Counted from the stretch's first letter, positions 25,084 to 36,555 are shown. The stretch: 64,000 nucleotides of DNA from an uncultured archaeon (GCA_964384995.1 CAYLMJ010000011.1:4417-68416); one strand, 5' to 3'. A program made the numbers and translations. Notes: generated by a model from the letters alone, not told the origin.

Positions 25084-25459
25084 GGCACGGGTCGAGATCA
25101 TCATCTCATCGAGGAACTGGGCTTTGCCGAGGGCAGCTCGATAATGATGGCTCATTGAACCGATCCAACTTCATCAGGCATTGGCGGGCATAGGCAGTCG
25201 ATCGCTGGTATTGGGAAGCAAAGGCAGACAAAGGAAAGCAAGGGCAGTCATGGGTAGATGTTTGCTGGTAAAGGGAAGCAAAAGCAAGCAATGCTAGCAA
25301 AGCAGGCAAAGGAAAGCAAAAGCAGGCAAGGGCAGACAGTGGGAGGCAATACAGGGTGCAAGAGGCGGCCGTACCTCACATCACCCCTTCTCCCCCTCTA
25401 TAATGATTATACACCTGGCCTCCCCTCTTAAATATCGCCAGCCATCCCCCCACGATTCC

Positions 25460-27439
25460 ATGCCACCGGACATGAAGTGGGACTACTCAGAGTATCCCGG
25501 AGCCAAGCTCTATCCTCACATCTTCAAGCCCATCAAGATCCGCAACCTCACCATCCCCAACCGCATCAAGTACGCCGCCACCGAGGACAACTTCAACGCC
25601 CGGGACGGCTTTGTCACCGACGCCGACGTGGCCTACATGCGGGAGCGGGCCAAGGGCGTGGTGGGCGGACTCTGCACCATCCAGGGCGTCTACATGGACG
25701 AGGGGATGGAGGGCAAGGGCTACGTGGGCATGGCCGGCGCCTGGGACGACAAGTACATCCCCGGACTCAAACGGCTCAACGACGCCATCCAGGAGCAGGG
25801 GGCCTACTCGGTCATCCAGCTCATGCACTGCGGCCGCGTGGGCGGTGTTGATGTGGGCTACTGCGTCGGCCCCACCAAGATCCAGCAGAGGCTCAGGGTC
25901 CTTGAACCCGTCCGCGAGATGAGCCACGCCGACATCAAGACCTGTGTACAACAGCACGCCGACGCCGCCCGACGGGGTGTCGAGGCCGGCTACGATGTCA
26001 TGGAGATATCGGGCATCGTGGGCTACCTGCTCTCCAACTTCCTGTCATCCTACACCAACCGGAGGACCGACGAGTACGGCGGCGACATCGAGGGTCGCTG
26101 CACCTTCATGACCGAAACGGTGGGAGCTGTGCGCGACGCCATCGGCGACATGCCCCTGGTCATCCGGCTCTGCGCCGAGGAACTGCTCAACGATGTGGGC
26201 GGCAACACCCCCGAGGAGTGCATGGTCACCTACCGCTTGGCCGAGAAGGCCGGAGTCGATGTCATGAGCGTCACCCAGGGCTGGCAGGAGTCCATCCATC
26301 CGGTCATCTCCCGGGACATCGCCATGGGCTCGTGGCTCTACAACGCCGAGCGGGCCAAGCAGAACCTCTCCATCCCGGTGGCCATGGCCTACCGCCTCTT
26401 CACCCCCGACCTCCCGAACAAGGCCATCGGCGAGGGCAAGCTGGACATCTGGGAGATGTGCCGGTCGCAGATAGCCGACGCCTACATGCCCCAGAAGGTC
26501 CTTGAGGGCAGAGAGGAGGACATCCGCCACTGCGTGGGCTGCAACCTCTGCCTGGCGCGCCTGTTCCGCAACGCCCCCATGACCTGCTTCATCAACCCCA
26601 TCTGCGCTCACGACCACCAGCCGGAGTGGCAGATAACCCCCACCGACGACGAGAAGGAGGTCATGATAGTGGGAGCCGGACCCGCCGGCCTGGAATGCGC
26701 TTGGGTGGCGGCCAAGCGGGGCCACGAGGTCACCGTCTACGACAGTACCTCCGAAGTGGGTGGCAACATCCTCTACGCCGCCAAGGGGCTCCACAACGAC
26801 AGCGAGATGCTCAAGATAGTGGCCTTCCACAAGACCCAGTGCGACAAGAACGGCGTTGAGTTCAAGCTGAACACCTCGGTCACCCCTGCGATGATGGAGG
26901 AGGAGGACCCCGACGTGGTGGTCGTGGCCACCGGCACCACCATCCCCAAACCCCAGGTTCAAGCCAGCGACAAGGTGGGCATGTTCTCAATGCACGAGTA
27001 CCTGGACGGCAAGGCCAAGGTGGGCGACACCGTGGCCGTGCTGGGCAGTCGCAAGCCCGCCATCAGCGTGGCCCTGCTCCTGGCGGCCGAGGGCAAGCGG
27101 GTCTCCCTCATCGCCGAGGAGCGCAAGCTGGGCAAGAACATCAACCCATCCCTGATCTGGCGCTACATGATGAAGCTGGGCCAGGCCCGCATCATGCGCT
27201 ACACCAACGCCAAGGTGCTGGCCATCGAGGACGACCAGGTGGTCATCGAGATGCTCCATGGCATGAAGTTCCCGGTGCCGGCCGACACGGTCATCTACAC
27301 CACCCGGGAGCCCCAGCGTGATCTGGAGAAGGCCGCCCAGGAGCTGGGGGCCGAGACCTACGTCCTGGGGGACGCCATAGTGCCTCGCAATCTTTCCCAT
27401 GCCGTCCATGACGGCTATCGCATCGGCCTGAGGTTATAG
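25460..27439 (+). CDS. OYE/FadH-type flavo-iron-sulfur reductase (2,4-dienoyl-CoA reductase / enoate reductase family: FMN barrel + [4Fe-4S] + FAD/NAD(P) domain)
   Basis: LFKPIKIRNLTIPNRIKYAATED..., HCGRVG, CVGCNLCLARLFRNAPMTC cluster motif, VMIVGAGPAGLECAWVAAKRGHEVTVYD. The start is ATG 25460 or 25403. Confidence 0.8.
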   Translation: MPPDMKWDYSEYPGAKLYPHIFKPIKIRNLTIPNRIKYAATEDNFNARDGFVTDADVAYMRERAKGVVGGLCTIQGVYMDEGMEGKGYVGMAGAWDDKYIPGLKRLNDAIQEQGAYSVIQLMHCGRVGGVDVGYCVGPTKIQQRLRVLEPVREMSHADIKTCVQQHADAARRGVEAGYDVMEISGIVGYLLSNFLSSYTNRRTDEYGGDIEGRCTFMTETVGAVRDAIGDMPLVIRLCAEELLNDVGGNTPEECMVTYRLAEKAGVDVMSVTQGWQESIHPVISRDIAMGSWLYNAERAKQNLSIPVAMAYRLFTPDLPNKAIGEGKLDIWEMCRSQIADAYMPQKVLEGREEDIRHCVGCNLCLARLFRNAPMTCFINPICAHDHQPEWQITPTDDEKEVMIVGAGPAGLECAWVAAKRGHEVTVYDSTSEVGGNILYAAKGLHNDSEMLKIVAFHKTQCDKNGVEFKLNTSVTPAMMEEEDPDVVVVATGTTIPKPQVQASDKVGMFSMHEYLDGKAKVGDTVAVLGSRKPAISVALLLAAEGKRVSLIAEERKLGKNINPSLIWRYMMKLGQARIMRYTNAKVLAIEDDQVVIEMLHGMKFPVPADTVIYTTREPQRDLEKAAQELGAETYVLGDAIVPRNLSHAVHDGYRIGLRL

Positions 27440-27453
27440 GAGGAGGTGAAAAG

Positions 27454-28077
27454 ATGCCTGTGAACCTGGAAAAAGAACTGATGACCATGTACCGCAAGTT
27501 CAACACCCTGGGCAACATCGAGCGGGCCACCTGGTACGAATGGCGCCAGGCCGCTCTGGAGTTCGCCCGAGAGGGCACCGACCCCATGGACCTGGTCCTG
27601 CGGGCCTGGGAGATCGTGGGCCACGACACCGCCAAGAGCTACTTCGGGGGCCTGGACGTGACCAAGGGGCCCAAACGCTTCGTCACCGACATCGCCCGCC
27701 GGATAGTCGCCAGCTCCATCAACATGGGCGAGGACGCCAAGGTGGTGGAGAGCGACAAGGATAACGAGGTCTACGTGCGCTGGGACCGCTGTCCCTGGCC
27801 CGACTTCGCCCGTCGCTACGACGCTCCGATGGAGGAGGACCTGCAGGGTTGCGACAAGTGGTTCATGACGGTCATCGAGGACATCAACGAGGTCTTCAAC
27901 ACCCATGTTCAGCTGGAGACCCAGGCCGCGATCCCCAGCGGCGACTGCCACTGCCTGAGGCGCATCTGGGTGGACGAGTGGCACCACACCAAGGACTACA
28001 CCCTGGTGAAGCCGGGCGAGGAGCCCACCGATGCCTCCAAAGCCAAGGCCAATGCCGGCCAGAAGAAGGAGGCCTGA
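27454..28077 (+). CDS. hypothetical protein, possibly of the L-2-amino-thiazoline-4-carboxylate (ATC) hydrolase-like family
   Basis: 207 aa. VYVRWDRCPWPDFARRYD...LQGCDKWF...ETQAAIPSGDCHCLRRIW resembles the Cys-containing pattern I recall for that family. Weak call. Confidence 0.4.
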   Translation: MPVNLEKELMTMYRKFNTLGNIERATWYEWRQAALEFAREGTDPMDLVLRAWEIVGHDTAKSYFGGLDVTKGPKRFVTDIARRIVASSINMGEDAKVVESDKDNEVYVRWDRCPWPDFARRYDAPMEEDLQGCDKWFMTVIEDINEVFNTHVQLETQAAIPSGDCHCLRRIWVDEWHHTKDYTLVKPGEEPTDASKAKANAGQKKEA

Positions 28078-28079
28078 GG

Positions 28080-28280
28080 ATGGTCATCGAGATCGATGTG
28101 GAGAAGTGCCAGATGTGCGGCGGCCTGTGCGAGCCGGTGTGCGTGGACATCTGTCCGACCTCGGCCCTGATGGTTGGCGACGGCAAGATACTGGTCACCG
28201 AGTTCCTCTGTGAGGACTGCAACGAGTGCGGCTTCGCTTGCCCGGACAAGGCCATGGAGATCGTGAAGGTCACCTGGTAG
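28080..28280 (+). CDS. small 2x[4Fe-4S] ferredoxin
   Basis: 66 aa: MVIEIDVEKCQMCGGLCEPVCVDICP...CEDCNECGFACP. AGGAGG lies 8-13 nt upstream, and ATG 28080 is 2 nt after the previous stop. Confidence 0.8.
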   Translation: MVIEIDVEKCQMCGGLCEPVCVDICPTSALMVGDGKILVTEFLCEDCNECGFACPDKAMEIVKVTW

Positions 28281-28362: not shown

Positions 28363-28977
28363 TCAAGGTTGCTGGAACAGCCAGTTGCTTGCCTGCCCCA
28401 CAGCTTCCATCATCTCGACCACGTAATCCGGCCTCTTATCGTCTCTCCAGCAGGGCATGCCGCCGCGGTCGATGTAGCCCAGGACCTGGTGGAAGACCGA
28501 CCGGGAAAGGATGATGTCGCCGATGGAGAGGATGTCGGTATCCCGATCCGAGGTGATGGGGATGGCGTGGGGGGCGGCGTACTGCAGGAGGAGGCGTTCC
28601 ACCGGTTCCCGGTTGCGATGGCCCTCGGGCTTCTGCTTGAAATCCTCCTGCCGCTCAGGGAAGGGGAACAGCTTGTAGACCTCGCCGATGAAGCCGGAGA
28701 GCAGGGTGCCCTGGATGGCGCCATGGAGACTGCCGATGTCCTCGGGTGATAGGATATGGAACTCCAGGGTCGTGTCAAGATTTGCCTCGACCTGCCCTGC
28801 CTTTGCTTTGCCCACCTCCCCAGCCAATGCCTCCTCTTGCTGTGCCCACTCGATTATCGCGGCGCAGAGGTCGGAGGCGAAGATGAAGTGGTCGTCGATT
28901 AGAAAGCAGTCGGTGTCGATGTTGAAGAAGCCGATGGGGATGTGGCCGCGGCTGAGGGAGTCGAAACCAAGGGGCAT
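28363..28977 (-). CDS. hypothetical protein (204 aa)
   Basis: Start moved to ATG 28977 (MPLGFDSLSRGHIPIGFFNID...) because the longer ORF's N-terminus is translated from the repeat element at 29023..29083. No family recognised. Confidence 0.4.
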   Translation of the reverse strand: MPLGFDSLSRGHIPIGFFNIDTDCFLIDDHFIFASDLCAAIIEWAQQEEALAGEVGKAKAGQVEANLDTTLEFHILSPEDIGSLHGAIQGTLLSGFIGEVYKLFPFPERQEDFKQKPEGHRNREPVERLLLQYAAPHAIPITSDRDTDILSIGDIILSRSVFHQVLGYIDRGGMPCWRDDKRPDYVVEMMEAVGQASNWLFQQP

Positions 28978-29022: not shown

Positions 29023-29083
29023 GACACAGATTTCACAGATTGCACGGATTATTTTAATCCGTGAGATCGGTGTAATCCGTGTC
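29023..29083. repeat. CAC(A/G)GAT heptamer hairpin element (3 direct + 3 inverted units)
   Basis: gacacagatttcacagattgcacggattattttaatccgtgagatcggtgtaatccgtgtc. Units at 9-nt spacing with the arms about 22/28 complementary. Lies just 3' of the HdrD-like gene. Confidence 0.8.
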
Positions 29084-29092
29084 AAATGATTA

Positions 29093-30445
29093 TCAGGATT
29101 TCGGCAGTGCCATCTCAACGATCTGGGCCAACTCGAATATCTTCACCTTCGACTTCATCTTCCGTAGCGTGTACCGGAAGTTGTTACAGCACATGGGACA
29201 GGGCGTCACGATGGCGTCCACCTCGCCCATTGCGTCCATCGCGCCCACTGCATTGGCTGGGGAGGCGTTGGTGGGCTCGCTGGGACCATTGTTTTCTTGG
29301 TCATCATCCTCGGCCTTTGCATCGTAGGTGATGGGCCGGGGCAGGCAGAGCTCCAGCTTGCGCCTGGCTATCTCCATGGCCTTCTCTCTCTGATGGGCCC
29401 ACATGCCGCCGCCGCCGCCACAGCACATGGCCTTCTCCCCCGTCGGGTCCATCTCCACCAGCTCCAGGCCCTCTATGGCCCGCAACACCTCCCGCGGCTC
29501 ATCGTACACTCCAGCCTCTCGTCCCAGCGAACACGGGTCATGGTAGGTCACCCGCATCGGTTCTGGCAACGCGAGGTCGATCTTCGTTGCAGGAGGAGGC
29601 GTGGTTGAGCTCTCTGCGACAGCAGGAGGCACAGACCCAACAGCAGGAGGAGGCGAGGGCTGTGTGTCGGCAGATATTGGCTCGTCCTCCGAGGCTTCCT
29701 GCGCATCCCCATTCTCAAGCAGGTACTGCGAGAGATGGAGCACCTCGATGTCACCCAGGTCGAGACCCATGCGATTGGGATAGAGGTTGGTGAAGGCGTT
29801 GAAACAGCCTGCACATGACACGACTACCTTCTTCACCCCGGCCTCCCGGAAGGCATCCAGGGTTCGCGTGGCAATCTCCCGGGCCGCTTCGTCAAGACCC
29901 AGCACCGACAGGGGCTCTCCACAGCAGGGCTCCTCGGGCAGGAGGCGGAAGCCGTCACCCACGTTCTGCAGGACCTTAGCCGTGGCCCGGGCCAGCCTGT
30001 GGGACATCATGGAGGGGGTGCAACCAACCCAGTACAGCGTCTCGGCATCCTCATTGGGCCGTATGCTATCGTCTAGCCACGAGGCCTTGGTGCGGGTCAG
30101 GGACTGGTAGGGACTGCCGGTGTCCAGGATGGTCTGGCCGGTCTGGTTCACAACCTCGGGGGCGTGACCCTCCTCCAGCGCCACTTTTCGCAGGGCCAGC
30201 ACCAGGTCGGGCAGGTCCAGGCCCTCTGTGCACAGCACCTCGCACCGGTCGCACTGGGTGCAGAGCCAGGGCACCTGACCCAGAAAGCCGGGGTCGCTGG
30301 CCAGCCCCAGCTGGAGTCGCCGGACCATGCGGCGGATGTGGAAGTCGGTGACCTCGAAGGTGGGGCAGGCGGCGGTGCAGGTGCCACACTGGATGCAGCT
30401 GCGGATGAGCTGGCCGTATGCATCACGGAGGTTCTGGCCGGCCAT
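29093..30445 (-). CDS. HdrD-like Fe-S protein (2x[4Fe-4S] ferredoxin domain + two CCG domains)
   Basis: CIQCGTCTAACP and CTQCDRCEVLC. CCG-type motifs CCGEP, SCAGCFN, HDPCSLGR, CCGGGGG, TPCPMCCNNF. A Pro/Ser-rich and an acidic insertion lie between the conserved blocks. Confidence 0.8.
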   Translation of the reverse strand: MAGQNLRDAYGQLIRSCIQCGTCTAACPTFEVTDFHIRRMVRRLQLGLASDPGFLGQVPWLCTQCDRCEVLCTEGLDLPDLVLALRKVALEEGHAPEVVNQTGQTILDTGSPYQSLTRTKASWLDDSIRPNEDAETLYWVGCTPSMMSHRLARATAKVLQNVGDGFRLLPEEPCCGEPLSVLGLDEAAREIATRTLDAFREAGVKKVVVSCAGCFNAFTNLYPNRMGLDLGDIEVLHLSQYLLENGDAQEASEDEPISADTQPSPPPAVGSVPPAVAESSTTPPPATKIDLALPEPMRVTYHDPCSLGREAGVYDEPREVLRAIEGLELVEMDPTGEKAMCCGGGGGMWAHQREKAMEIARRKLELCLPRPITYDAKAEDDDQENNGPSEPTNASPANAVGAMDAMGEVDAIVTPCPMCCNNFRYTLRKMKSKVKIFELAQIVEMALPKS

Positions 30446-30447
30446 GC

Positions 30448-32622
30448 TCAGCCACCTCCCCCATCGCCAGCTTCATCCCCATCCTCATCCACATCTTCAT
30501 CCTCTATCCCGTAGGCCTCGGCGTCCAGGCCCAACTTCTCGACCATGTCCTTCATGGTGGCCACGAACTTGGGACCGTCGGCCGCCGACATCCAGACGTT
30601 CCAGATGCGGTCGGTTTTGTAGCCCTTCTTCGCCAGCTTCTTCGTTAGGCGCTCGATGCGCTTTTGGCACTTGTAGTTACCGTTGATGTAATGGCAGGTG
30701 GGGAACTCACAGCCCGCCACCAACACCCCGCCGGCTCCCAGGTCCAAGGCCTGCTGGACCCAGTCGTTCTTCACCCTTCCCGAGCACATGACCCGGATGA
30801 GGCGGGCGTTGGGGGGATACTCGGCGCGGCTGACGCCGGCCAGGTCCACGGCGCCCATGGCGCACCAGTGACAGCAGAAGGCGAGTATCTTCTGCTCGGG
30901 CTCCAGGGCCAGGGCCGAGACGATCTGGGCCTCGATCTGCCGGTCGGAGTAGTGTATGATCTGGATGGCGTCGGAGGGGCACTCTGCGGCGCAGGTGCCG
31001 CAACCCTTGCACAGGGCCTCCAGGGCGTTGGGCACCTTCCGCTTGGCCGCCGGGTCCACGATCTCGATGGCGCTGTAGGGGCAGACCTTGGCGCAGAGGC
31101 CGCATTCGGAGCAGAGGTCGTGATCGATCTGGCAGATGATGCCAGGGGCCTCGATGTAGCCTCGGCGCATGGGTATGACAGCCCGCATGGCCGCCCCCAT
31201 GGCCTCCTCCATGGCCCAGCGCACGCCCTTGGGCGAACGGGCCCCGCCGCAGACATAGAGGCCGTCGCCGGCGAAGTCCAGGGGCGCCAGCTTGATGTGG
31301 GCCTCCTGGAAGTAGCCATCCTTGTCAGACGATACCTTTAGCTGGCCCTTCAGCTCCTCCACCGAGGGGTCACCGACCAGCGCCGTGGTGAGGACCGCCA
31401 GGTCCACGGGTATCTGGAGCTCCACATCCAGAAGCAGGTCCCTGGCCCGCACCATCAGACCGCCGTCATCCCCCATCACCACCTCGGGCGGGGTGTCGGG
31501 GTCATAGCGCACGAGGCGGATGTCATGGCCCTTCAGGGCCTGGCGGACGTAGTTGGCCTCCTCGCCCTGGACGTTTAGGTCGCGATAGAATACGAACACT
31601 GGAGCGGCAGGGTCCCGCTCCTTGAGGGTGATGGCGTTGCGGATGGAGGCCAGACAGCCCACGTTGCAGCAGCCCCGCTCAGCATTGCGCGAGCCGACGC
31701 AGTTGAAGATGGCCACCGCCTTTCCATCCACCTTGGAGGCCTTGGGGTCGGCCAGCATAGCCTCCAGTTGCATCTGGGTGATGACACCGGGATGAGAGCC
31801 AAAGCCGAACAGCCCCTGGGGCTCAAGCTCGCCCATGCCGGTGGCCACGATGATGGTGGAGACCTCCAGCTCGTCGCTGGAACCACCCTTGAGCTGTACC
31901 GAGTAGTTGCCGATGTAGCCGGAGATGGAGCCGGTCACCGTGTTGGTGTGGACCGTGATGTTTGTCGCGGCCTTCACCTCGGCCGCCTGGCGTTCAACCA
32001 TCTTGTGGGCCTCGATGTCGGCGGGGGCCAGCATGTGGAGTCGGTTCAGCAGGCCGCCCAGTCTCGCCTCCCGCTCCACGAGATGGACCTCGAAGCCCTG
32101 TCTCGCCACCCCCAGGGCCGCGGTCATGCCGGCGATGCCGCCGCCGAGGACCAGACAGGTCCGGCCCACCGACAGGCGTATCTCCTGGGCCGGCTCCAGC
32201 AGGCGGGCCTTGGCCACGCCCATGGCCACCAGGTCCATGGCCTTGCGGGTGGCCGCCCCGGGCCGGGAGCGATGGACCCAGGAGCTCTGCTCCCGGATGC
32301 TCACGAACTCCAGCAGGTAGGGGTTGAGGCCGGCCTCCTTCACCGCGTCCTTGAAGAGGGGTTCGTGGGTCCGGGGGGTGCACGAGGCGACGACCACCCG
32401 CTCCAGCTCGTGCTCGTTGATGAACGCCTTGATCTGGGCCAGGTAGTCGGCCGAGCAGATCCAGCGGCCCTCGTCCACGAAGACCACCCCCTCCAGGCCC
32501 TTGGCGTACTCCGCCACCGCCGGCACGTCCACGGTGCCCAGGATGTTGGAGCCGCAGTCGCAGACGAAGACGCCAACGCGGGGGTCCGGTTCATCGGCGG
32601 CCCGGTCAGCCATCGGCCTCAC
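30448..32622 (-). CDS. HdrA-like flavoprotein fused to an MvhD-like domain (QmoB-like architecture)
   Basis: N-domain VGVFVCDCGSNILGTVDV...ASCTPRTHEP, FAD fold LVLGGGIAGMTAAL, CSECGLCAKVCP and CKGCGTCAAECP. MvhD part FCCHWCAMGAVDLAG...RVMCSGRV...VAGCEFPTCHY. Confidence 0.85.
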   Translation of the reverse strand: MRPMADRAADEPDPRVGVFVCDCGSNILGTVDVPAVAEYAKGLEGVVFVDEGRWICSADYLAQIKAFINEHELERVVVASCTPRTHEPLFKDAVKEAGLNPYLLEFVSIREQSSWVHRSRPGAATRKAMDLVAMGVAKARLLEPAQEIRLSVGRTCLVLGGGIAGMTAALGVARQGFEVHLVEREARLGGLLNRLHMLAPADIEAHKMVERQAAEVKAATNITVHTNTVTGSISGYIGNYSVQLKGGSSDELEVSTIIVATGMGELEPQGLFGFGSHPGVITQMQLEAMLADPKASKVDGKAVAIFNCVGSRNAERGCCNVGCLASIRNAITLKERDPAAPVFVFYRDLNVQGEEANYVRQALKGHDIRLVRYDPDTPPEVVMGDDGGLMVRARDLLLDVELQIPVDLAVLTTALVGDPSVEELKGQLKVSSDKDGYFQEAHIKLAPLDFAGDGLYVCGGARSPKGVRWAMEEAMGAAMRAVIPMRRGYIEAPGIICQIDHDLCSECGLCAKVCPYSAIEIVDPAAKRKVPNALEALCKGCGTCAAECPSDAIQIIHYSDRQIEAQIVSALALEPEQKILAFCCHWCAMGAVDLAGVSRAEYPPNARLIRVMCSGRVKNDWVQQALDLGAGGVLVAGCEFPTCHYINGNYKCQKRIERLTKKLAKKGYKTDRIWNVWMSAADGPKFVATMKDMVEKLGLDAEAYGIEDEDVDEDGDEAGDGGGG

Positions 32623-34021
32623 CTCCCCACTCAGCCGCCCTGAGACTGGCGGCGATGGCCTGGGTCACCGATTCGGAGATGTCGATGGGACCTGTGGCCC
32701 CGCCGCAGAGGTAGATGCCCTCGACAGTGGATTCCAGGGGGGCGAAGACCGGGTCCCTCTCGGCGAAGTAGCCCCGCTCGTTCAGCTCCAGGCCCAGCCG
32801 CTTGGCCAGCCTGGCGTTGCGCTGTCCCGGCAGGAGCCCGGCGGCCAGCACCAGCAGGTCCAGCTCCAGGTCATGCAGTTCGCCGGAGTCCAGGTCCTCG
32901 TAGCGCACGGTGAGGCACTTCGTCTCCGGGTCCTGAAAGACATCCGAGGGCTTCCCCTTGAGGTACCTGACGCCATGGCCCTGGGCCCGCCTGACGAAGT
33001 CGTGAAAGCCCTTGCCGTAATCCTTGAGATTGTGATGGAAAACGTAGGCCTCCACCTCCGGGTCGTGCTCCTTGGCGATGATGGTCTGCTTGGTGGAGAA
33101 CATGCAGCAGACCTTGGAGCAGTAGGGTAGGTGACCTCCCTGATCTGCCTTCAGCTCGGCCTGGGGTACCTCGGGTAGCTCATCCTTCAGTCCCACCTCC
33201 CGGCCCACGCACTGGACCCAGCCGATGCGCTTGGGATGCTTGCCGTCGGAGAGCCGGATGATGTCGCCCTCGGTGGGCCCCCCGGCGTTCATGAGCCGCT
33301 CGAACTGCATGGTGGTCAGGACGTTGTCGTATGTGGCGTAGCCGTAGTGGTCGGCCGGGGGCTCGTAGGGTTCCACCCCGGTGGCCACGATGATGCTCTT
33401 GATCCTCAGCTTGTGACGCTTGTCCTTCTGCCACAGCAGGACCGCCTCGGCCCCCTCCTTGCGGCAGGCCACCACGCAATCGGCTATCTGGCACTCCCGG
33501 CACTGGGAGCAGTCGATGATGCAGCGGCCCACGCAGGCGCCAGCATGGTCCATGTGGCCAAAGCGGCACAGGGGGCTCACCACGTAGGTGTTGGGCACGG
33601 CCTGGGGGAAGGGGAGGCCGATGAGCTTGCGGATGCCGCCCAGCTTGCCATCCAGCTCGTCGGGCAGGGAGACCGGGCAGGCCTCGGCGCACTTGGCACA
33701 GCCCTTGCATCTGTCCTCGTCCACGAACTTGGCCTTCTCCACCACCGTGACCTTGAAGTCGCCAGCCTTGCCCTTGACCTTGCGGACGATGGAGTTGGTG
33801 AGCAGGGTGATGTTGGGATGGGTCTGCACCTCGTACATCTTGGGGGCCTCGATGCAGATGGAGCAGTCGTTGGTGGGGAAGGTCTTGTCCAGCCGGGCCA
33901 TGAGCCCGCCGATGGATGGGGTGTCGTCCAGGAGGTAGACCTGCTCGCCAAGGTCGGCCAGGTTGAGGGCGGCCTCGATTCCGGCGATGCCTCCTCCGAT
34001 GACCAGGACCCCGGCCGTCAT
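32606..34021 (-). CDS. HdrA-like flavoprotein, core only (FAD domain with inserted ferredoxin)
   Basis: VLVIGGGIAGIEAALNLA, hallmark LDKTFPTNDCSICIEAPKM, CKGCAKCAEACP, CSKVCCMFS. 17-nt overlap with the downstream HdrA/MvhD gene. Confidence 0.85.
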   Translation of the reverse strand: MTAGVLVIGGGIAGIEAALNLADLGEQVYLLDDTPSIGGLMARLDKTFPTNDCSICIEAPKMYEVQTHPNITLLTNSIVRKVKGKAGDFKVTVVEKAKFVDEDRCKGCAKCAEACPVSLPDELDGKLGGIRKLIGLPFPQAVPNTYVVSPLCRFGHMDHAGACVGRCIIDCSQCRECQIADCVVACRKEGAEAVLLWQKDKRHKLRIKSIIVATGVEPYEPPADHYGYATYDNVLTTMQFERLMNAGGPTEGDIIRLSDGKHPKRIGWVQCVGREVGLKDELPEVPQAELKADQGGHLPYCSKVCCMFSTKQTIIAKEHDPEVEAYVFHHNLKDYGKGFHDFVRRAQGHGVRYLKGKPSDVFQDPETKCLTVRYEDLDSGELHDLELDLLVLAAGLLPGQRNARLAKRLGLELNERGYFAERDPVFAPLESTVEGIYLCGGATGPIDISESVTQAIAASLRAAEWGGEADG

Positions 34022-34206: not shown

Positions 34207-36312
34207 TCAGAGTGCCACCGGCTCCTGGAACTCGCCAAAGACCTCGCGGAAGAGGGCCGAGATCTCCCCGACCGTGGCGTAGGCCTCCACCGCCTCCATG
34301 ATGGCGGGCATGAGATTCTCGTCGCTCTTGGCCGTTGCCTCCAACCGTTGTAACGCCGCGTCCACGGCGGCCTGGTCCCGACTGGCCTTGATATCCTTCA
34401 GGCGCCCGATCTGTTCCTGTGCGGCATCCGGCTCGTAATCGTGAAGCTTCACCGCCCGTTCCTGGTCTCGCTCGGCACTGCGGTACTTGTTGACCCCCAC
34501 CTTGACGAACTCCCCCGACTGGACCGCCCGCTCGTGGGCGTAGGCCTGGGCCGCCACCTGGCGCTGGAGACTGCCCTCGGCGATGGCCTGCACGATGCCG
34601 CCCCACTCCCGGACCCGCCCCATCTCCTTGATGATGCGCCCCTCCAGCTCGCTGGTCAGGGACTCGATGTAGTAGGAGCCGCCCAGGGGGTCCACGGTGT
34701 CGGCCAGGCCCATCTCCTCGATGAGGATCTGCATGGTGCGCAGGGAGACCAGGGCCGCCTCCTTGGAGGGGATGGTGTAGGCCTCGTCGTAGGAGCAGAG
34801 GGCCATGGTCTGGGTGCCCGACAGGGCGGATATGAGAGCGTAGTAGGCTCCCCGCACGATGTTGTTCAGGGGCTCCTCGATGGTGAGCCCACCCCCGCCG
34901 CCGCCGGCGATCATCTTCAGCTTCTGGGCCTTGGGATTGGCCACCCCCAGCTCGTCGCGCACCAGTTTGGCCCACAGCCGCCGCCCCGCCCTGAACTTGG
35001 CCACTTGCTCGAAGAGGTTGCCGTGGATGTCGAAGTTGAAGCTCACCTGGGAGGCGAAATGTTCGGGGTCCAGGCCCCGTCCCTCCATGCGGCGCACGTA
35101 CTCTGTGGCAATGGCGAAGGCGTAGGCCATCTCCTGCACCGGATCGGCCCCGGACTCGCGGATGTGGTAGCCGCACACCGAGACCGGGTAGTACTTGGGC
35201 ACATGGCGGGCGCAGTGCTCCCACACGTCGATGACCAGGCGGATGGAGGGTTCGACAGGATAGATCCACGTGCCGCGACCAACGAACTCCTTGAGGATGT
35301 CGTTCTGGGCGGTGCCCCGGATCTGGTCCATGGCCAGGCCCTGCTTGCGGGCCACCACCAGGTACATGGCCACCAGGATGGGGGCGGTGGAGTTGATGGT
35401 CAGCGAGGTGGAGATGCGGTCCAGGGGGATGGCGTCGAAGGCCACCTCCATGTCGGCCAGGGTGTCCACGGCCATGCCCACCCGGCCCACCTCGCCCGCG
35501 GCCCGGGGGTCGTCGGAGTCGAGCCCCATCTGGGTGGGCAGGTCGAAGGCCACGTTGAGGGCGTTCTGGCCCTCGCCGATGAGGTACTTGAAGCGCTCGT
35601 TGGTCTGGGAGGGGGTGCCGAAACCGGAGTACTGGCGCATGGTGAAGGGCCGCGCCCGGTACATCAGGTCGTGGATGCCCCTGGTGAAGGGGAAGTCGCC
35701 AGGCCGGCCCACCTCGGAATCCAGGTCCAGGTCGGCCACCTGCTCGGGGCCGTAAACCGGCAGGGGCTCGACGCCCGATTCCAGGACCACCTTCCGGGCC
35801 TGGGGCCGGCGGGGTGGGGGCGCCCCCGTTTTCTTACCTGCCGCCGGGGTCTCTTCTGCCTCCTTTGCTGGATCCTCAGGAGCCGCCACTTCCCGTCCTC
35901 CGACCCTGGCCACCGCCTCCCGCAGGCCCGCGGCGATGTCCTCCAATCGGGCGCTGGTGGGGAAGATGTCCACGACACCCAGCTCCCGGAGGGGCCCGTG
36001 GTCCCGGGCCGGGATGTTGCCACCGAAGAACACCGGGACCTCGGAGAGCCCCTCGGCGCTCATGCGCTCCCTCAGGTGCTCGGCGATGGGCAGATGGGCG
36101 CCCGAGAGGATGGAGAGCCCGATGGCGTCGACATCCTCCTCCAGGGCCGCGGCCACGATCTGGTCCACGGTCCTGTGGAGTCCGGTGTAGATGACCTCGA
36201 AGCCGGAATCGCGGAGGGCCAGGGCCACCACCTTGGCCCCCTGGTCGTGGCCGTCCAGGCCCGGTTTGGCGATGAGCACGCGGATGGGTCTTGGAGCTGT
36301 ATCGTCTGACAT
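34207..36312 (-). CDS. methylmalonyl-CoA-mutase-type B12 enzyme, single polypeptide with the B12-binding domain N-terminal to the catalytic barrel
   Basis: N-terminal IRVLIAKPGLDGHDQGAKVVA (DxHxxG), a Pro/Ala/Lys linker, then FPFTRGIHDLMYRARPFTMRQYSGFG...LNVAFDLPTQMGLDSD...NDILKEFVGRGTWIYP. Start at ATG 36312 (MSDDTAPRPIRV...). Confidence 0.85.
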   Translation of the reverse strand: MSDDTAPRPIRVLIAKPGLDGHDQGAKVVALALRDSGFEVIYTGLHRTVDQIVAAALEEDVDAIGLSILSGAHLPIAEHLRERMSAEGLSEVPVFFGGNIPARDHGPLRELGVVDIFPTSARLEDIAAGLREAVARVGGREVAAPEDPAKEAEETPAAGKKTGAPPPRRPQARKVVLESGVEPLPVYGPEQVADLDLDSEVGRPGDFPFTRGIHDLMYRARPFTMRQYSGFGTPSQTNERFKYLIGEGQNALNVAFDLPTQMGLDSDDPRAAGEVGRVGMAVDTLADMEVAFDAIPLDRISTSLTINSTAPILVAMYLVVARKQGLAMDQIRGTAQNDILKEFVGRGTWIYPVEPSIRLVIDVWEHCARHVPKYYPVSVCGYHIRESGADPVQEMAYAFAIATEYVRRMEGRGLDPEHFASQVSFNFDIHGNLFEQVAKFRAGRRLWAKLVRDELGVANPKAQKLKMIAGGGGGGLTIEEPLNNIVRGAYYALISALSGTQTMALCSYDEAYTIPSKEAALVSLRTMQILIEEMGLADTVDPLGGSYYIESLTSELEGRIIKEMGRVREWGGIVQAIAEGSLQRQVAAQAYAHERAVQSGEFVKVGVNKYRSAERDQERAVKLHDYEPDAAQEQIGRLKDIKASRDQAAVDAALQRLEATAKSDENLMPAIMEAVEAYATVGEISALFREVFGEFQEPVAL

Positions 36313-36555
36313 GGCTTGGGCTCCCGGAAGTGAGGGCATGGGCCTTTCGTTCTTTACCTTTTGCAAGGACCAACAGCGGGCAGAGGCCGATCACGGGGCC
36401 CTCAAGCGGTACAGCAGGCATCAGGCGATCAGGGGCCAGGGCGGCTTGCCGGGCAATTAATTCCAGTAGGATTGAAATCGTAATGCCCCATGTTGAATAC
36501 ACACATTAAATACTCATCACGCCTGAACGAACCATCCAGAGGAGCCACGATCGCC

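What the first reader, a model, noticed from the sequence alone, without database searches (positions are those of the whole stretch)
30448..34021. HdrA split into two complementary paralogues, one fused to MvhD
The 471-aa protein keeps the FAD core with the hallmark LDKTFPTNDCSICIEAPKM, the inserted ferredoxin (CKGCAKCAEACP) and CSKVCCM. It lacks the N-terminal cluster domain and the C-terminal ferredoxins. The 724-aa protein has the N-terminal domain (VGVFVCDCGSNILGTVDV), a FAD fold in which the DCSxC segment is replaced by LNRLHMLAPADIEAHKM, two C-terminal ferredoxin motifs and a complete MvhD domain. The genes overlap by 17 nt. Methanogen HdrA acts as a homodimer, and QmoA/QmoB is the known heteromeric variant but partners with membrane-bound QmoC. 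Here the partner is a soluble HdrD-like protein, giving a QmoAB-like/HdrD hybrid with no hydrogenase to justify the MvhD domain.
Basis: partly seen in the sequence, partly recalled or inferred. Interest (0 to 1): 0.6.

Follow-up and report, generated by a model that had tools for sequence, protein, structure and literature searches.

The report
Two-gene HdrA heterodimer with HdrD partner
Two adjacent genes encode complementary halves of the electron-splitting flavoprotein HdrA, followed by a soluble HdrD-like partner; the pair is real and conserved from archaea to bacteria inside a larger reductase gene cassette, but split HdrA as such has been described before.

Summary
A (32606-34021, 471 aa) has the FAD core, the DCSIC motif and an enlarged inserted ferredoxin. 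B (30448-32613/32622, 721/724 aa) has the N-terminal cluster domain, an FAD core without DCSxC and without the inserted ferredoxin, the C-terminal ferredoxin and a fused MvhD. D (29093-30445) is a soluble HdrC+HdrB-type (HdrD-like) protein.

The pair is not an orthologue of QmoAB. It is 24-28% identical to a canonical QmoA/QmoB. It branches apart from them in a tree. The genome has no QmoC, AprA, sulfite reductase or McrA.

A and B form a tightly co-inherited pair. A lies directly upstream of B in 63 of 64 loci, at 55-65% identity, in Thermoplasmatota, Methanomethylicia, Nezhaarchaeales, Desulfobacterota, Chloroflexota and Planctomycetota. A fused A'-B' paralogue exists in the same genome. Bacteria replace HdrD with an HdrC-GltD (NADPH-type) fusion.

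The pair usually sits beside an NCR-like old-yellow-enzyme reductase, a PF14196 protein and a dedicated 66-aa ferredoxin, as it does here.

Most likely it is an asymmetric, soluble HdrA-type electron-bifurcating core. Complementary tandem HdrAs and QmoAB-HdrD arrangements are already published. I found no description of the cassette and the partner swap. The claim "no hydrogenase" is wrong for the genome.

The parts
32606..34021 (-). Subunit A (471 aa). HdrA-type FAD/thioredoxin-reductase core carrying DCSIC (C53, C56; C56 is the Cys197 equivalent), the core cluster ligands C271/C301/C305/C306, and an inserted ferredoxin domain with 12 invariant Cys. It has no N-terminal domain and no C-terminal ferredoxin.
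   Evidence: SD-like GGGAGG lies 8 nt before the ATG
30448..32622 (-). Subunit B (724 aa from GTG 32622; more likely 721 aa from ATG 32613). It has the N-terminal cluster domain (C21, C23, C56, C81), an FAD core lacking DCSxC and lacking the inserted ferredoxin, a variant core cluster motif C308-x9-CC-x3-C323, a C-terminal 2x[4Fe-4S] ferredoxin, a fused MvhD/FlpD domain (residues 579-697) and an acidic tail.
29093..30445 (-). Subunit D (450 aa). Soluble HdrD-like protein with an HdrC-like 2x[4Fe-4S] domain (residues about 5-112) and two complete CCG motifs. It has two low-complexity insertions (about residues 249-292 and 368-402). It starts 2 nt after the stop codon of B.
29043..29063 (-). Hairpin CACGGATT-AAAATA-AATCCGTG in an A+T-rich spacer just after the stop of D. 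It is a likely end of the A-B-D transcript.
   Evidence: sequence read directly; function inferred
25403..27439 (+). Conserved neighbour. Three-domain old-yellow-enzyme flavoprotein (FMN barrel, [4Fe-4S], FAD domain) closest to 2-naphthoyl-CoA reductase. It is convergent with the A-B-D operon.
27454..28077 (+). Conserved neighbour. PF14196 (ATC_hydrolase-like) protein of unknown role, always next to the OYE gene.
28080..28280 (+). Conserved neighbour. Dedicated 66-aa 2x[4Fe-4S] ferredoxin, 55-64% identical in 44 loci. It follows the PF14196 gene in 39 of 39 loci.

Best explanation
A and B form an obligate 1:1 heterodimer that replaces the HdrA homodimer.

Only one complete electron circuit can be assembled, and it uses pieces from both subunits:
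- Entry port: the MvhD [2Fe-2S] domain and the C-terminal ferredoxin of B.
- Interface [4Fe-4S] cluster: three Cys from the N-terminal domain of B plus Cys56 of A.
- Low-potential exit: the inserted ferredoxin of A. It has 12 Cys, enough for three clusters.
- FAD: each subunit keeps an FAD fold and a core cluster.

D docks through its HdrC-like domain. Its two CCG (non-cubane cluster) sites add a dithiol/disulfide site.

The complex is soluble and works as a flavin-based electron-bifurcating or confurcating core. It links a still unknown disulfide/dithiol couple, a low-potential ferredoxin and a third partner that binds at MvhD. Bacterial versions have NADP(H) in place of the disulfide couple, through an HdrC-GltD fusion.

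In this genome, as in most relatives, the core belongs to a cassette with an NCR-like OYE reductase and its own small ferredoxin. The most likely job is to supply or balance low-potential electrons for that reductase.

Shown here: domain anatomy, ligand complementarity, co-inheritance, partner swap, synteny.
Inferred: heterodimer formation, bifurcation, direction of electron flow, the substrates.
For: Domain complementarity against solved HdrA and MvhD structures.

Cys197 logic:
- The N-terminal cluster of HdrA takes one ligand, Cys197, from the partner protomer (PMC9012536).
- A keeps DCSIC in 65 of 65 sequences but has no N-terminal domain.
- B keeps the N-terminal domain cysteines but has no Cys at that position in 80 sequences.

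Co-inheritance:
- A lies directly upstream of B in 9 of 9 archaeal and 54 of 55 bacterial loci with enough flank.
- The A and B trees are congruent.
- The start and stop codons overlap.

Fusion link:
- The same genome encodes a 1065-aa fusion of a paralogous A' (with DCSIC) and B' (N-terminal domain, no DCSxC), followed by an MvhD gene.

Partner:
- It is HdrD-like in 9 of 10 archaeal loci and HdrC-GltD in 47 of 54 bacterial loci.
- Both partner types share a homologous HdrC-like N-terminus, 40% identical over 78 aa.
- All CCG cysteines are kept.

No membrane segment in A, B or D.

Cassette:
- The OYE lies within 7 kb in 28 of 31 bacterial and 3 of 5 archaeal loci with both flanks, plus this window, in three different gene orders.
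- The ferredoxin follows the PF14196 gene in 39 of 39 loci.
- The OYE is closest to NCR (463 bits against 253 for the dienoyl-CoA reductase).
Against: - No biochemical or structural data exist for this family.
- The OYE-PF14196-ferredoxin trio is absent within 8 kb in the closest relative (L009) and in several archaeal loci (L010/L018, L016). Coupling to the OYE is therefore not obligatory.
- True NCR genes in strain NaphS2 sit beside NuoEFG-like genes, not beside an HdrA pair (PMC2988823).
- The Trp that blocks the NADPH site in NCR aligns to Met in the window's OYE.
- No candidate disulfide substrate is identified. The genome lacks McrA, sulfite reductase and AprA.
- With three ports and free ferredoxin, several electron-flow schemes fit equally well.
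- QmoAB itself has never been shown to bifurcate.
Confidence: 0.55

Rival explanations
1. H2-dependent Hdr. A-B-D is a heterodisulfide-type reductase that docks, through the fused MvhD of B, onto one of the genome's Mvh-type [NiFe]-hydrogenases. It bifurcates electrons from H2 to an unknown disulfide (via D) and to ferredoxin, as MvhAGD-HdrABC does. The OYE neighbourhood would be incidental in this archaeon.
For: - There are two [NiFe]-hydrogenase large-subunit loci in the genome.
- In solved complexes MvhD is the adaptor between the hydrogenase and HdrA.
- The closest relative, L009, lacks the OYE trio nearby.
Against: - Both hydrogenase loci carry their own MvhD genes and their own full-length HdrA genes next to them.
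- No hydrogenase gene lies next to the pair in any of the 82 loci.
- The bacterial versions pair with an NADPH module instead.
Confidence: 0.15
2. Non-bifurcating electron wire. A-B-D only passes electrons between ferredoxin and a dithiol/disulfide, as a ferredoxin:disulfide reductase. The second FAD and the MvhD domain would be structural or relay elements, as has been discussed for QmoAB.
For: - The heterodimer has lost one of each peripheral domain.
- B has an altered core-cluster motif.
- Bifurcation has not been shown for the analogous QmoAB (background in PMC3333476).
Against: - All ligand sets for the three-way circuit of bifurcating HdrA are strictly conserved across two domains of life.
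- A is more similar to bifurcating methanogen HdrA than to QmoA.
Confidence: 0.15
3. Genuine Qmo function. A and B are QmoA and QmoB, delivering electrons to APS reductase, with HdrD replacing QmoC as in some Gram-positive sulfate reducers.
For: - The domain partition is the same as in QmoA/QmoB.
- QmoAB-HdrD arrangements exist next to aprAB in some bacteria (PMC10504309).
Against: - The roughly 90%-complete genome has no AprA, no sulfite reductase and no QmoC above cut-off.
- Identity to a canonical QmoA/QmoB is 24-28%.
- The sulfate reducer Desulfocarbo has both a canonical aprA-qmoAB..qmoC locus and, separately, this pair.
- QmoA and QmoB form their own branch in the tree.
Confidence: 0.02
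4. BamDEF-like module. A-B-D is the HdrA/MvhD/HdrD-type electron module of a class II benzoyl-CoA-reductase-like tungsten enzyme, serving the AOR-family genes in the window.
For: - BamD, BamE and BamF are HdrD-, HdrA- and MvhD-like (PMC12016498).
- Two AOR-family genes lie in the window.
- An AOR gene lies near the pair in L012, L013, L017 and L029.
Against: - Both tested AORs (window AOR2 and the L017 AOR) match ordinary aldehyde:ferredoxin oxidoreductases best, and BamB worst.
- AOR is not among the conserved neighbour clusters of the 82 loci.
- No BamGHI-like genes were seen.
Confidence: 0.05

Closest known systems
Tandem or fused complementary HdrA paralogues of ANME archaea and Moorella (HdrA5/6, 12/13, 3, 4; Chadwick et al. 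2022, PMC9012536)
   Same: [quoted passage not shown] The genes are adjacent or fused. A heterodimer that breaks the two-fold symmetry of HdrA is inferred.
   Different: - Those examples come from methane/alkane-metabolising archaea and an acetogen, with FdhAB-, HdrBC- or MetFV-type partners.
- This family also divides the two ferredoxin domains between the subunits.
- It has a 12-Cys inserted domain, a variant core-cluster motif in B and a fused MvhD.
- Its partners are HdrD or HdrC-GltD, and it travels with an OYE/ferredoxin cassette.
- Direct orthology to the ANME groups was not tested.
QmoABC / QmoAB-HdrBC / QmoAB-HdrD of sulfate reducers and sulfur oxidisers (PMC3333476, PMC10504309)
   Same: There is a small HdrA-like subunit without the N- and C-terminal domains, and a large one with an N-terminal domain, a C-terminal ferredoxin and an MvhD domain. 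Soluble HdrBC/HdrD partners occur in some lineages.
   Different: - Identity is only 24-28%.
- QmoA and QmoB branch together, apart from A and B.
- QmoB keeps the canonical core-cluster motif.
- There is no aprBA, sat or QmoC here.
- The pair coexists with canonical Qmo in Desulfocarbo.
MvhAGD-HdrABC of methanogens (solved structures 5odc, 9sfi, 8rvu)
   Same: This is the best structural template for every domain of A, B (including MvhD) and the HdrC/HdrB parts of D. It has the same FAD core and the same cluster ligands.
   Different: - It is a homodimer of full-length HdrA, with separate MvhD, HdrB and HdrC and a bound hydrogenase.
- Its substrate is CoM-S-S-CoB.
- Here McrA is absent, and NCBIfam HdrA scores are far below cut-off (435 and 630 bits against a cut-off of 1100).
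HdrA2B2C2 of Methanosarcina acetivorans (PMC5296606; NCBIfam NF040770)
   Same: It is an HdrA fused to MvhD, and it is the best-scoring curated family for both A and B.
   Different: HdrA2 is a single full-length polypeptide that uses F420H2 and HdrB2C2. Here the functions are divided over two genes, and both scores are below the family cut-off.
2-Naphthoyl-CoA reductase, a type III aryl-CoA reductase (6qkg; PMC6502838). Relevant to the neighbouring OYE only.
   Same: It is the best solved match over the full length. It has the same FMN barrel, [4Fe-4S] and FAD domain layout. Both have a degenerate second dinucleotide-binding motif (NCR read from the alignment, the OYE family).
   Different: The substrate is unknown. 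NCR Trp459 aligns to Met. Known ncr genes in NaphS2 neighbour NuoEFG-like genes, not an HdrA pair.

Membership tests
QmoAB (APS-reductase-linked) | Small QmoA-type plus large QmoB-type (MvhD-bearing) HdrA-like subunits encoded in tandem | tested here: met
QmoAB (APS-reductase-linked) | Orthology to characterised QmoA/QmoB | tested here: not met
   Identity is 28% and 24% to Desulfocarbo QmoA and QmoB, against 60% and 55% to that organism's second pair. In the tree, QmoA+QmoB are split from all other sequences with 99/98 support. Only one Qmo pair was sampled.
QmoAB (APS-reductase-linked) | QmoC partner and genomic or functional link to AprBA/Sat | tested here: not met
   No QmoC above cut-off. 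No AprA by tblastn. No sulfite reductase domain. The genome is 89.8% complete.
CoB-CoM heterodisulfide reductase HdrA / HdrA2 (NCBIfam equivalogs) | Score above the curated cut-off, in a methanogenic context | tested here: not met
   434.8 and 630.2 bits against a cut-off of 1100. No McrA.
Heteromeric (symmetry-broken) HdrA | Complementary presence of the N-terminal cluster domain and the Cys197 ligand in two adjacent HdrA genes | tested here: met
   criterion taken from PMC9012536
Heteromeric (symmetry-broken) HdrA | Strict co-occurrence and co-evolution of the two genes; fused forms exist | tested here: met
Heteromeric (symmetry-broken) HdrA | Physical A:B heterodimer with a shared interface cluster | not testable with these tools
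   The structure tool takes a single chain only. No experimental data exist.
Flavin-based electron-bifurcating HdrA modules | FAD-binding fold plus the ligands of the core, N-terminal, inserted and C-terminal clusters | tested here: met
   GxGxxG is present in both subunits, and all Cys sets are invariant. They are distributed over two subunits.
Flavin-based electron-bifurcating HdrA modules | Coupled reduction of a low- and a high-potential acceptor | not testable with these tools
   Needs enzyme assays.
HdrD (HdrC+HdrB fusion) | N-terminal 2x[4Fe-4S] domain and two CX31-39CCX35-36CXXC (CCG) motifs | tested here: met
   The second motif is interrupted by a 35-aa low-complexity insert, but its Cys residues are kept.
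HdrD (HdrC+HdrB fusion) | Membrane partner HdrE; CoM-S-S-CoB as substrate | tested here: not met
   No adjacent membrane protein and no hydrophobic segment. No McrA.
Type III aryl-CoA reductase (NCR), for the neighbouring OYE | Three-domain OYE closest to NCR, with a blocked NADPH site | tested here: inconclusive
   The best PDB hit is NCR at 463 bits. The second Rossmann motif is degenerate. NCR Trp459 aligns to Met. The substrate is unknown.

The most novel reading that the evidence does not exclude
The A-B pair is the core of an undescribed, horizontally mobile, cross-domain cassette. The cassette comprises an OYE reductase, a PF14196 protein, a dedicated ferredoxin, the asymmetric HdrA heterodimer, and either HdrD or HdrC-GltD. 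In it, an Hdr-type bifurcase makes low-potential ferredoxin specifically for an NCR-like flavoenzyme. That would be a candidate for the unidentified physiological electron-donor system of NCR-like (type III aryl-CoA reductase-type) flavoenzymes. The co-substrate module would be swapped between NADPH in bacteria and a thiol/disulfide couple in archaea.
Probability: 0.3. Interest if true: 0.75.

Novelty: new variant of a known kind. Interest (0 to 1): 0.5.

Why it matters
HdrA-type bifurcases are central to anaerobic energy metabolism, but outside methanogens their substrates are mostly unknown.

This family is a naturally 'halved' HdrA, with only one possible electron circuit. That makes it a clean system for asking which FAD bifurcates and how the interface cluster works.

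The exchange of the terminal module (HdrD against HdrC-GltD) on a conserved docking domain shows how these machines are rewired.

If the link to the NCR-like OYE and its ferredoxin holds, it gives a testable candidate for how such low-potential flavoenzymes are supplied with electrons. It would also give a function to Hdr genes in non-methanogenic, non-sulfate-reducing archaea.

Tried and rejected
- Canonical Qmo reading: rejected on identity, the tree, and the absence of QmoC, AprA and sulfite reductase.
- Methanogen Hdr reading: rejected because there is no McrA and the family scores are below cut-off.
- Bam-like reading: the AORs in the window and in L017 are ordinary AOR type, with BamB the weakest hit. 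AOR is not a conserved neighbour.
- B12 mutase upstream of A, and the 204-aa ORF downstream of D: each is conserved only in the closest relative L009, so neither is part of the system.
- Literature searches for the OYE + HdrA cassette found no description.
  - Estelmann 2015 is not held.
  - The Appel 2021 HdrA review was not looked up, so the novelty claim is limited to what could be searched.
- No Glyoxalase (VOC) gene, which is present in the bacterial operons, was found in the window.
- Heterodimer structure prediction was not possible, because the tool takes a single chain and its output gives no inter-residue distances. I therefore did not spend a job on the fused paralogue.
- The organism's lineage is not named by the tools. 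The nearest named protein relatives are Thermoplasmatota MAGs.


Full report
**Observation.**
The minus strand carries three tightly packed ORFs.
- A (P0001) spans 32606-34021 and is 471 aa.
- B (P0002) spans 30448-32622 and is 724 aa.
- D (P0003) spans 29093-30445 and is 450 aa.

D starts 2 nt after the stop of B. The GTG start of B lies inside a GGAGGTGA motif. The ATG at 32613, used by the identical database protein of 721 aa (P0004), is the more likely start. It gives an ATGGCTGA start/stop overlap of 8 nt rather than 17. A hairpin in an A+T-rich spacer follows D.

**Domain anatomy.**
Against solved structures, A aligns to residues 146-558 of methanogen HdrA (9sfi, 369 bits). That is the FAD/thioredoxin-reductase core plus the inserted ferredoxin.

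B aligns to 5odc HdrA residues 3-234 and 318-646, so it skips the inserted ferredoxin. Its tail aligns to MvhD (5odc_D) and to Pfam FlpD at residues 579-697.

D is an HdrC-like dicluster domain plus two CCG domains. It has two low-complexity inserts relative to a 371-aa homologue, but all motif cysteines are kept.

None of the three proteins has a membrane-like segment.

**Why a heterodimer.**
In HdrA the N-terminal [4Fe-4S] cluster takes its fourth ligand, Cys197, from the partner protomer. Chadwick et al. used complementary loss of the N-terminal domain and Cys197 to infer heterodimers of tandem HdrAs (PMC9012536). The same logic applies here and is strictly conserved.
- In 65 A-type sequences the DCSIC motif (C53, C56) is invariant.
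- In 80 B-type sequences the N-terminal cysteines (C21, C23, C56, C81) are conserved, and no Cys occurs at the DCSxC position.
- B also has a variant core-cluster motif (C308-x9-CC-x3-C323).
- The inserted domain of A has 12 invariant cysteines. That is enough for three clusters instead of two. This is an inference.

A lies directly upstream of B in 9 of 9 archaeal and 54 of 55 bacterial loci with sufficient flank. The A and B subtrees have the same topology.

The same genome also encodes a 1065-aa natural fusion of a paralogous A' (with DCSIC) and B' (N-terminal domain, no DCSxC), followed by a separate MvhD gene. That is a fusion-type link between the two halves.

Taken together, only one full MvhD -> C-terminal ferredoxin -> FAD -> interface cluster -> inserted ferredoxin circuit can be built, and it needs both subunits.

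**Not QmoAB.**
The domain partition is the one known from QmoA/QmoB, but the pair is not orthologous to them.

In Desulfocarbo indianensis I located the canonical aprA-qmoA-qmoB...qmoC locus. Its QmoA is 28% identical to A and its QmoB 24% identical to B. The second pair in the same organism (L077) is 60% and 55% identical.

In a core-domain tree:
- QmoA and QmoB are separated from all other sequences with 99/98 support.
- A-type sequences plus the fused A' group with a methanogen HdrA.
- B-type sequences plus the fused B' form their own clade.

Only one Qmo pair was sampled, and QmoB is a long branch.

The window's genome (2.63 Mb, 89.8% complete) lacks several markers.
- No QmoC above cut-off.
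- No AprA.
- No sulfite-reductase domain.
- No McrA.

It does have two [NiFe]-hydrogenase loci, each with its own MvhD. So 'no hydrogenase' applies only to the window.

**Distribution.**
B-type proteins of about 685 aa at 55-65% identity are abundant in public data. In species-representative genomes they occur in these groups:
- Thermoplasmatota
- Methanomethylicia
- Nezhaarchaeales
- Nitrososphaerota
- Desulfobacterota, including the isolate Desulfocarbo
- Dehalococcoidia and Anaerolineales
- Planctomycetota, including a Kuenenia MAG
- Acidobacteriota

Within the window's own class only 2 of 201 sampled genomes (this one and a congener) have an orthologue. The pair is therefore patchy and probably spreads horizontally as a unit.

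**Partners and cassette.**
The gene after B is HdrD-like in 9 of 10 archaeal loci and 1 of 54 bacterial loci. In 47 of 54 bacterial loci it is instead a 584-aa fusion of an HdrC-like ferredoxin with a GltD/NfnB-like NAD(P)H flavoprotein. The N-terminus of that fusion is 40% identical to the N-terminus of D. The docking domain is kept and the catalytic end is swapped.

Clustering all neighbours of 82 loci gave a conserved set.
- The bacterial order is TetR > OYE > PF14196 > ferredoxin > glyoxalase-fold > (aminotransferase) > A > B > HdrC-GltD.
- Archaea and one Planctomycetota MAG have A > B > D facing ferredoxin < PF14196 < OYE, as in this window, or the OYE unit upstream.
- The OYE is within 7 kb in 28 of 31 bacterial and 3 of 5 archaeal loci with both flanks.
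- The 66-aa 2x[4Fe-4S] ferredoxin (window 28080-28280) follows the PF14196 gene in 39 of 39 loci.

The window's OYE (25403-27439) is closest to 2-naphthoyl-CoA reductase (463 bits against 253 for the dienoyl-CoA reductase). Its family has a degenerate second dinucleotide-binding motif. For NCR-type enzymes the in vivo donor is thought to be a low-potential ferredoxin or ferredoxin-like domain, and it is still unknown (PMC6502838, PMC13101529).

There are three caveats on the OYE link.
- The trio is missing near the pair in the closest relative and in some other archaeal loci.
- Known ncr genes of NaphS2 neighbour NuoEFG-like genes.
- NCR Trp459 aligns to Met here.

**Mechanism proposed.**
A-B is an asymmetric HdrA core. 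D supplies a CCG dithiol/disulfide site through an HdrC-like wire. MvhD is the adaptor for a third partner. The inserted ferredoxin of A is the low-potential exit to the dedicated ferredoxin, and from there to the OYE.

Which couple is donor and which is acceptor cannot be settled here.
- With NADPH (bacterial version), a Bcd/Etf-like scheme is thermodynamically plausible: NADPH gives reduced ferredoxin plus reduction of an enoyl substrate.
- With a thiol couple (archaeal version), the disulfide is more likely the high-potential acceptor, and a donor enters at MvhD.

I put about 0.85 on the heterodimer. I put about 0.55 on the whole statement as a bifurcating core functionally tied to the cassette.

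**Comparison and novelty.**
Heteromeric HdrA is known from QmoAB, from the ANME tandem and fused HdrAs, and from Moorella. QmoAB-HdrBC/HdrD variants, and 'type II' Qmo-like pairs in organisms without Dsr/Apr, have been noted (PMC10504309).

Four things appear undescribed in the literature I could search.
- This specific, highly conserved cross-domain orthologous pair.
- Its 12-Cys inserted domain and variant B cluster motif.
- The HdrD/HdrC-GltD module swap.
- The OYE-PF14196-ferredoxin cassette.

I rate it a new variant of a known kind, of moderate interest.

**Limits.**
- No multimer modelling was possible.

Noticed in passing
own genome C7:29408-32605 (-), outside the window: A 1065-aa single polypeptide fuses an A-type HdrA (DCSIC, canonical 8-Cys inserted ferredoxin) to a B-type HdrA (N-terminal domain, no DCSxC, C-terminal ferredoxin). 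A separate MvhD gene follows at C7:28977-29525. Each half is about 41% identical to the window's A and B.
   Followed up: partly
own genome C7:42909-57267 and C8:51000-66700: The genome holds at least seven HdrA-like genes. It also has two [NiFe]-hydrogenase loci, four stand-alone MvhD genes and several HdrD/HdrC-like genes, although it lacks McrA, AprA and sulfite reductase. Hdr-type modules are therefore unusually abundant for a non-methanogen.
   Followed up: partly
window 29093-30445 and 30448-30520: D carries two low-complexity inserts: Pro/Ala/Ser-rich at about residues 249-292, and acidic at about 368-402. B ends in an Asp/Glu/Gly tail. Both features are absent from homologues (371 aa and about 685 aa).
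   Followed up: partly
window 28363-28977 (-): A 204-aa ORF with no Pfam match lies after the hairpin downstream of D. It is conserved (69% identity) only in the closest relative, L009.
   Followed up: partly
window 34207-36366 (-): A fused B12-binding domain plus methylmalonyl-CoA-mutase-type barrel (B12 domain first) lies directly upstream of A. This adjacency is shared only with L009 (87% identity).
   Followed up: partly
L017:36-16732 (Thermoplasmatales MAG) compared with window 12210-49081: The same set of families recurs around the pair in a distant Thermoplasmatales MAG: a Pyr_redox_2 flavoprotein, a ferredoxin plus AOR, a family-III CoA-transferase, and hydantoinase A/B directly upstream of the OYE in the same operon. 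This hints at a shared catabolic island with an unknown substrate.
   Followed up: partly
L070 (Kuenenia stuttgartiensis MAG), L045: The Kuenenia locus has A and B but neither partner type nor the OYE trio within 7 kb. L045 is the only locus with enough flank that lacks an A gene upstream of B.
   Followed up: no
window 29043-29082 (-): CACGGATTA occurs twice within 40 nt after the stop of D. The second copy forms the 5' arm of the hairpin CACGGATT-AAAATA-AATCCGTG.
   Followed up: no
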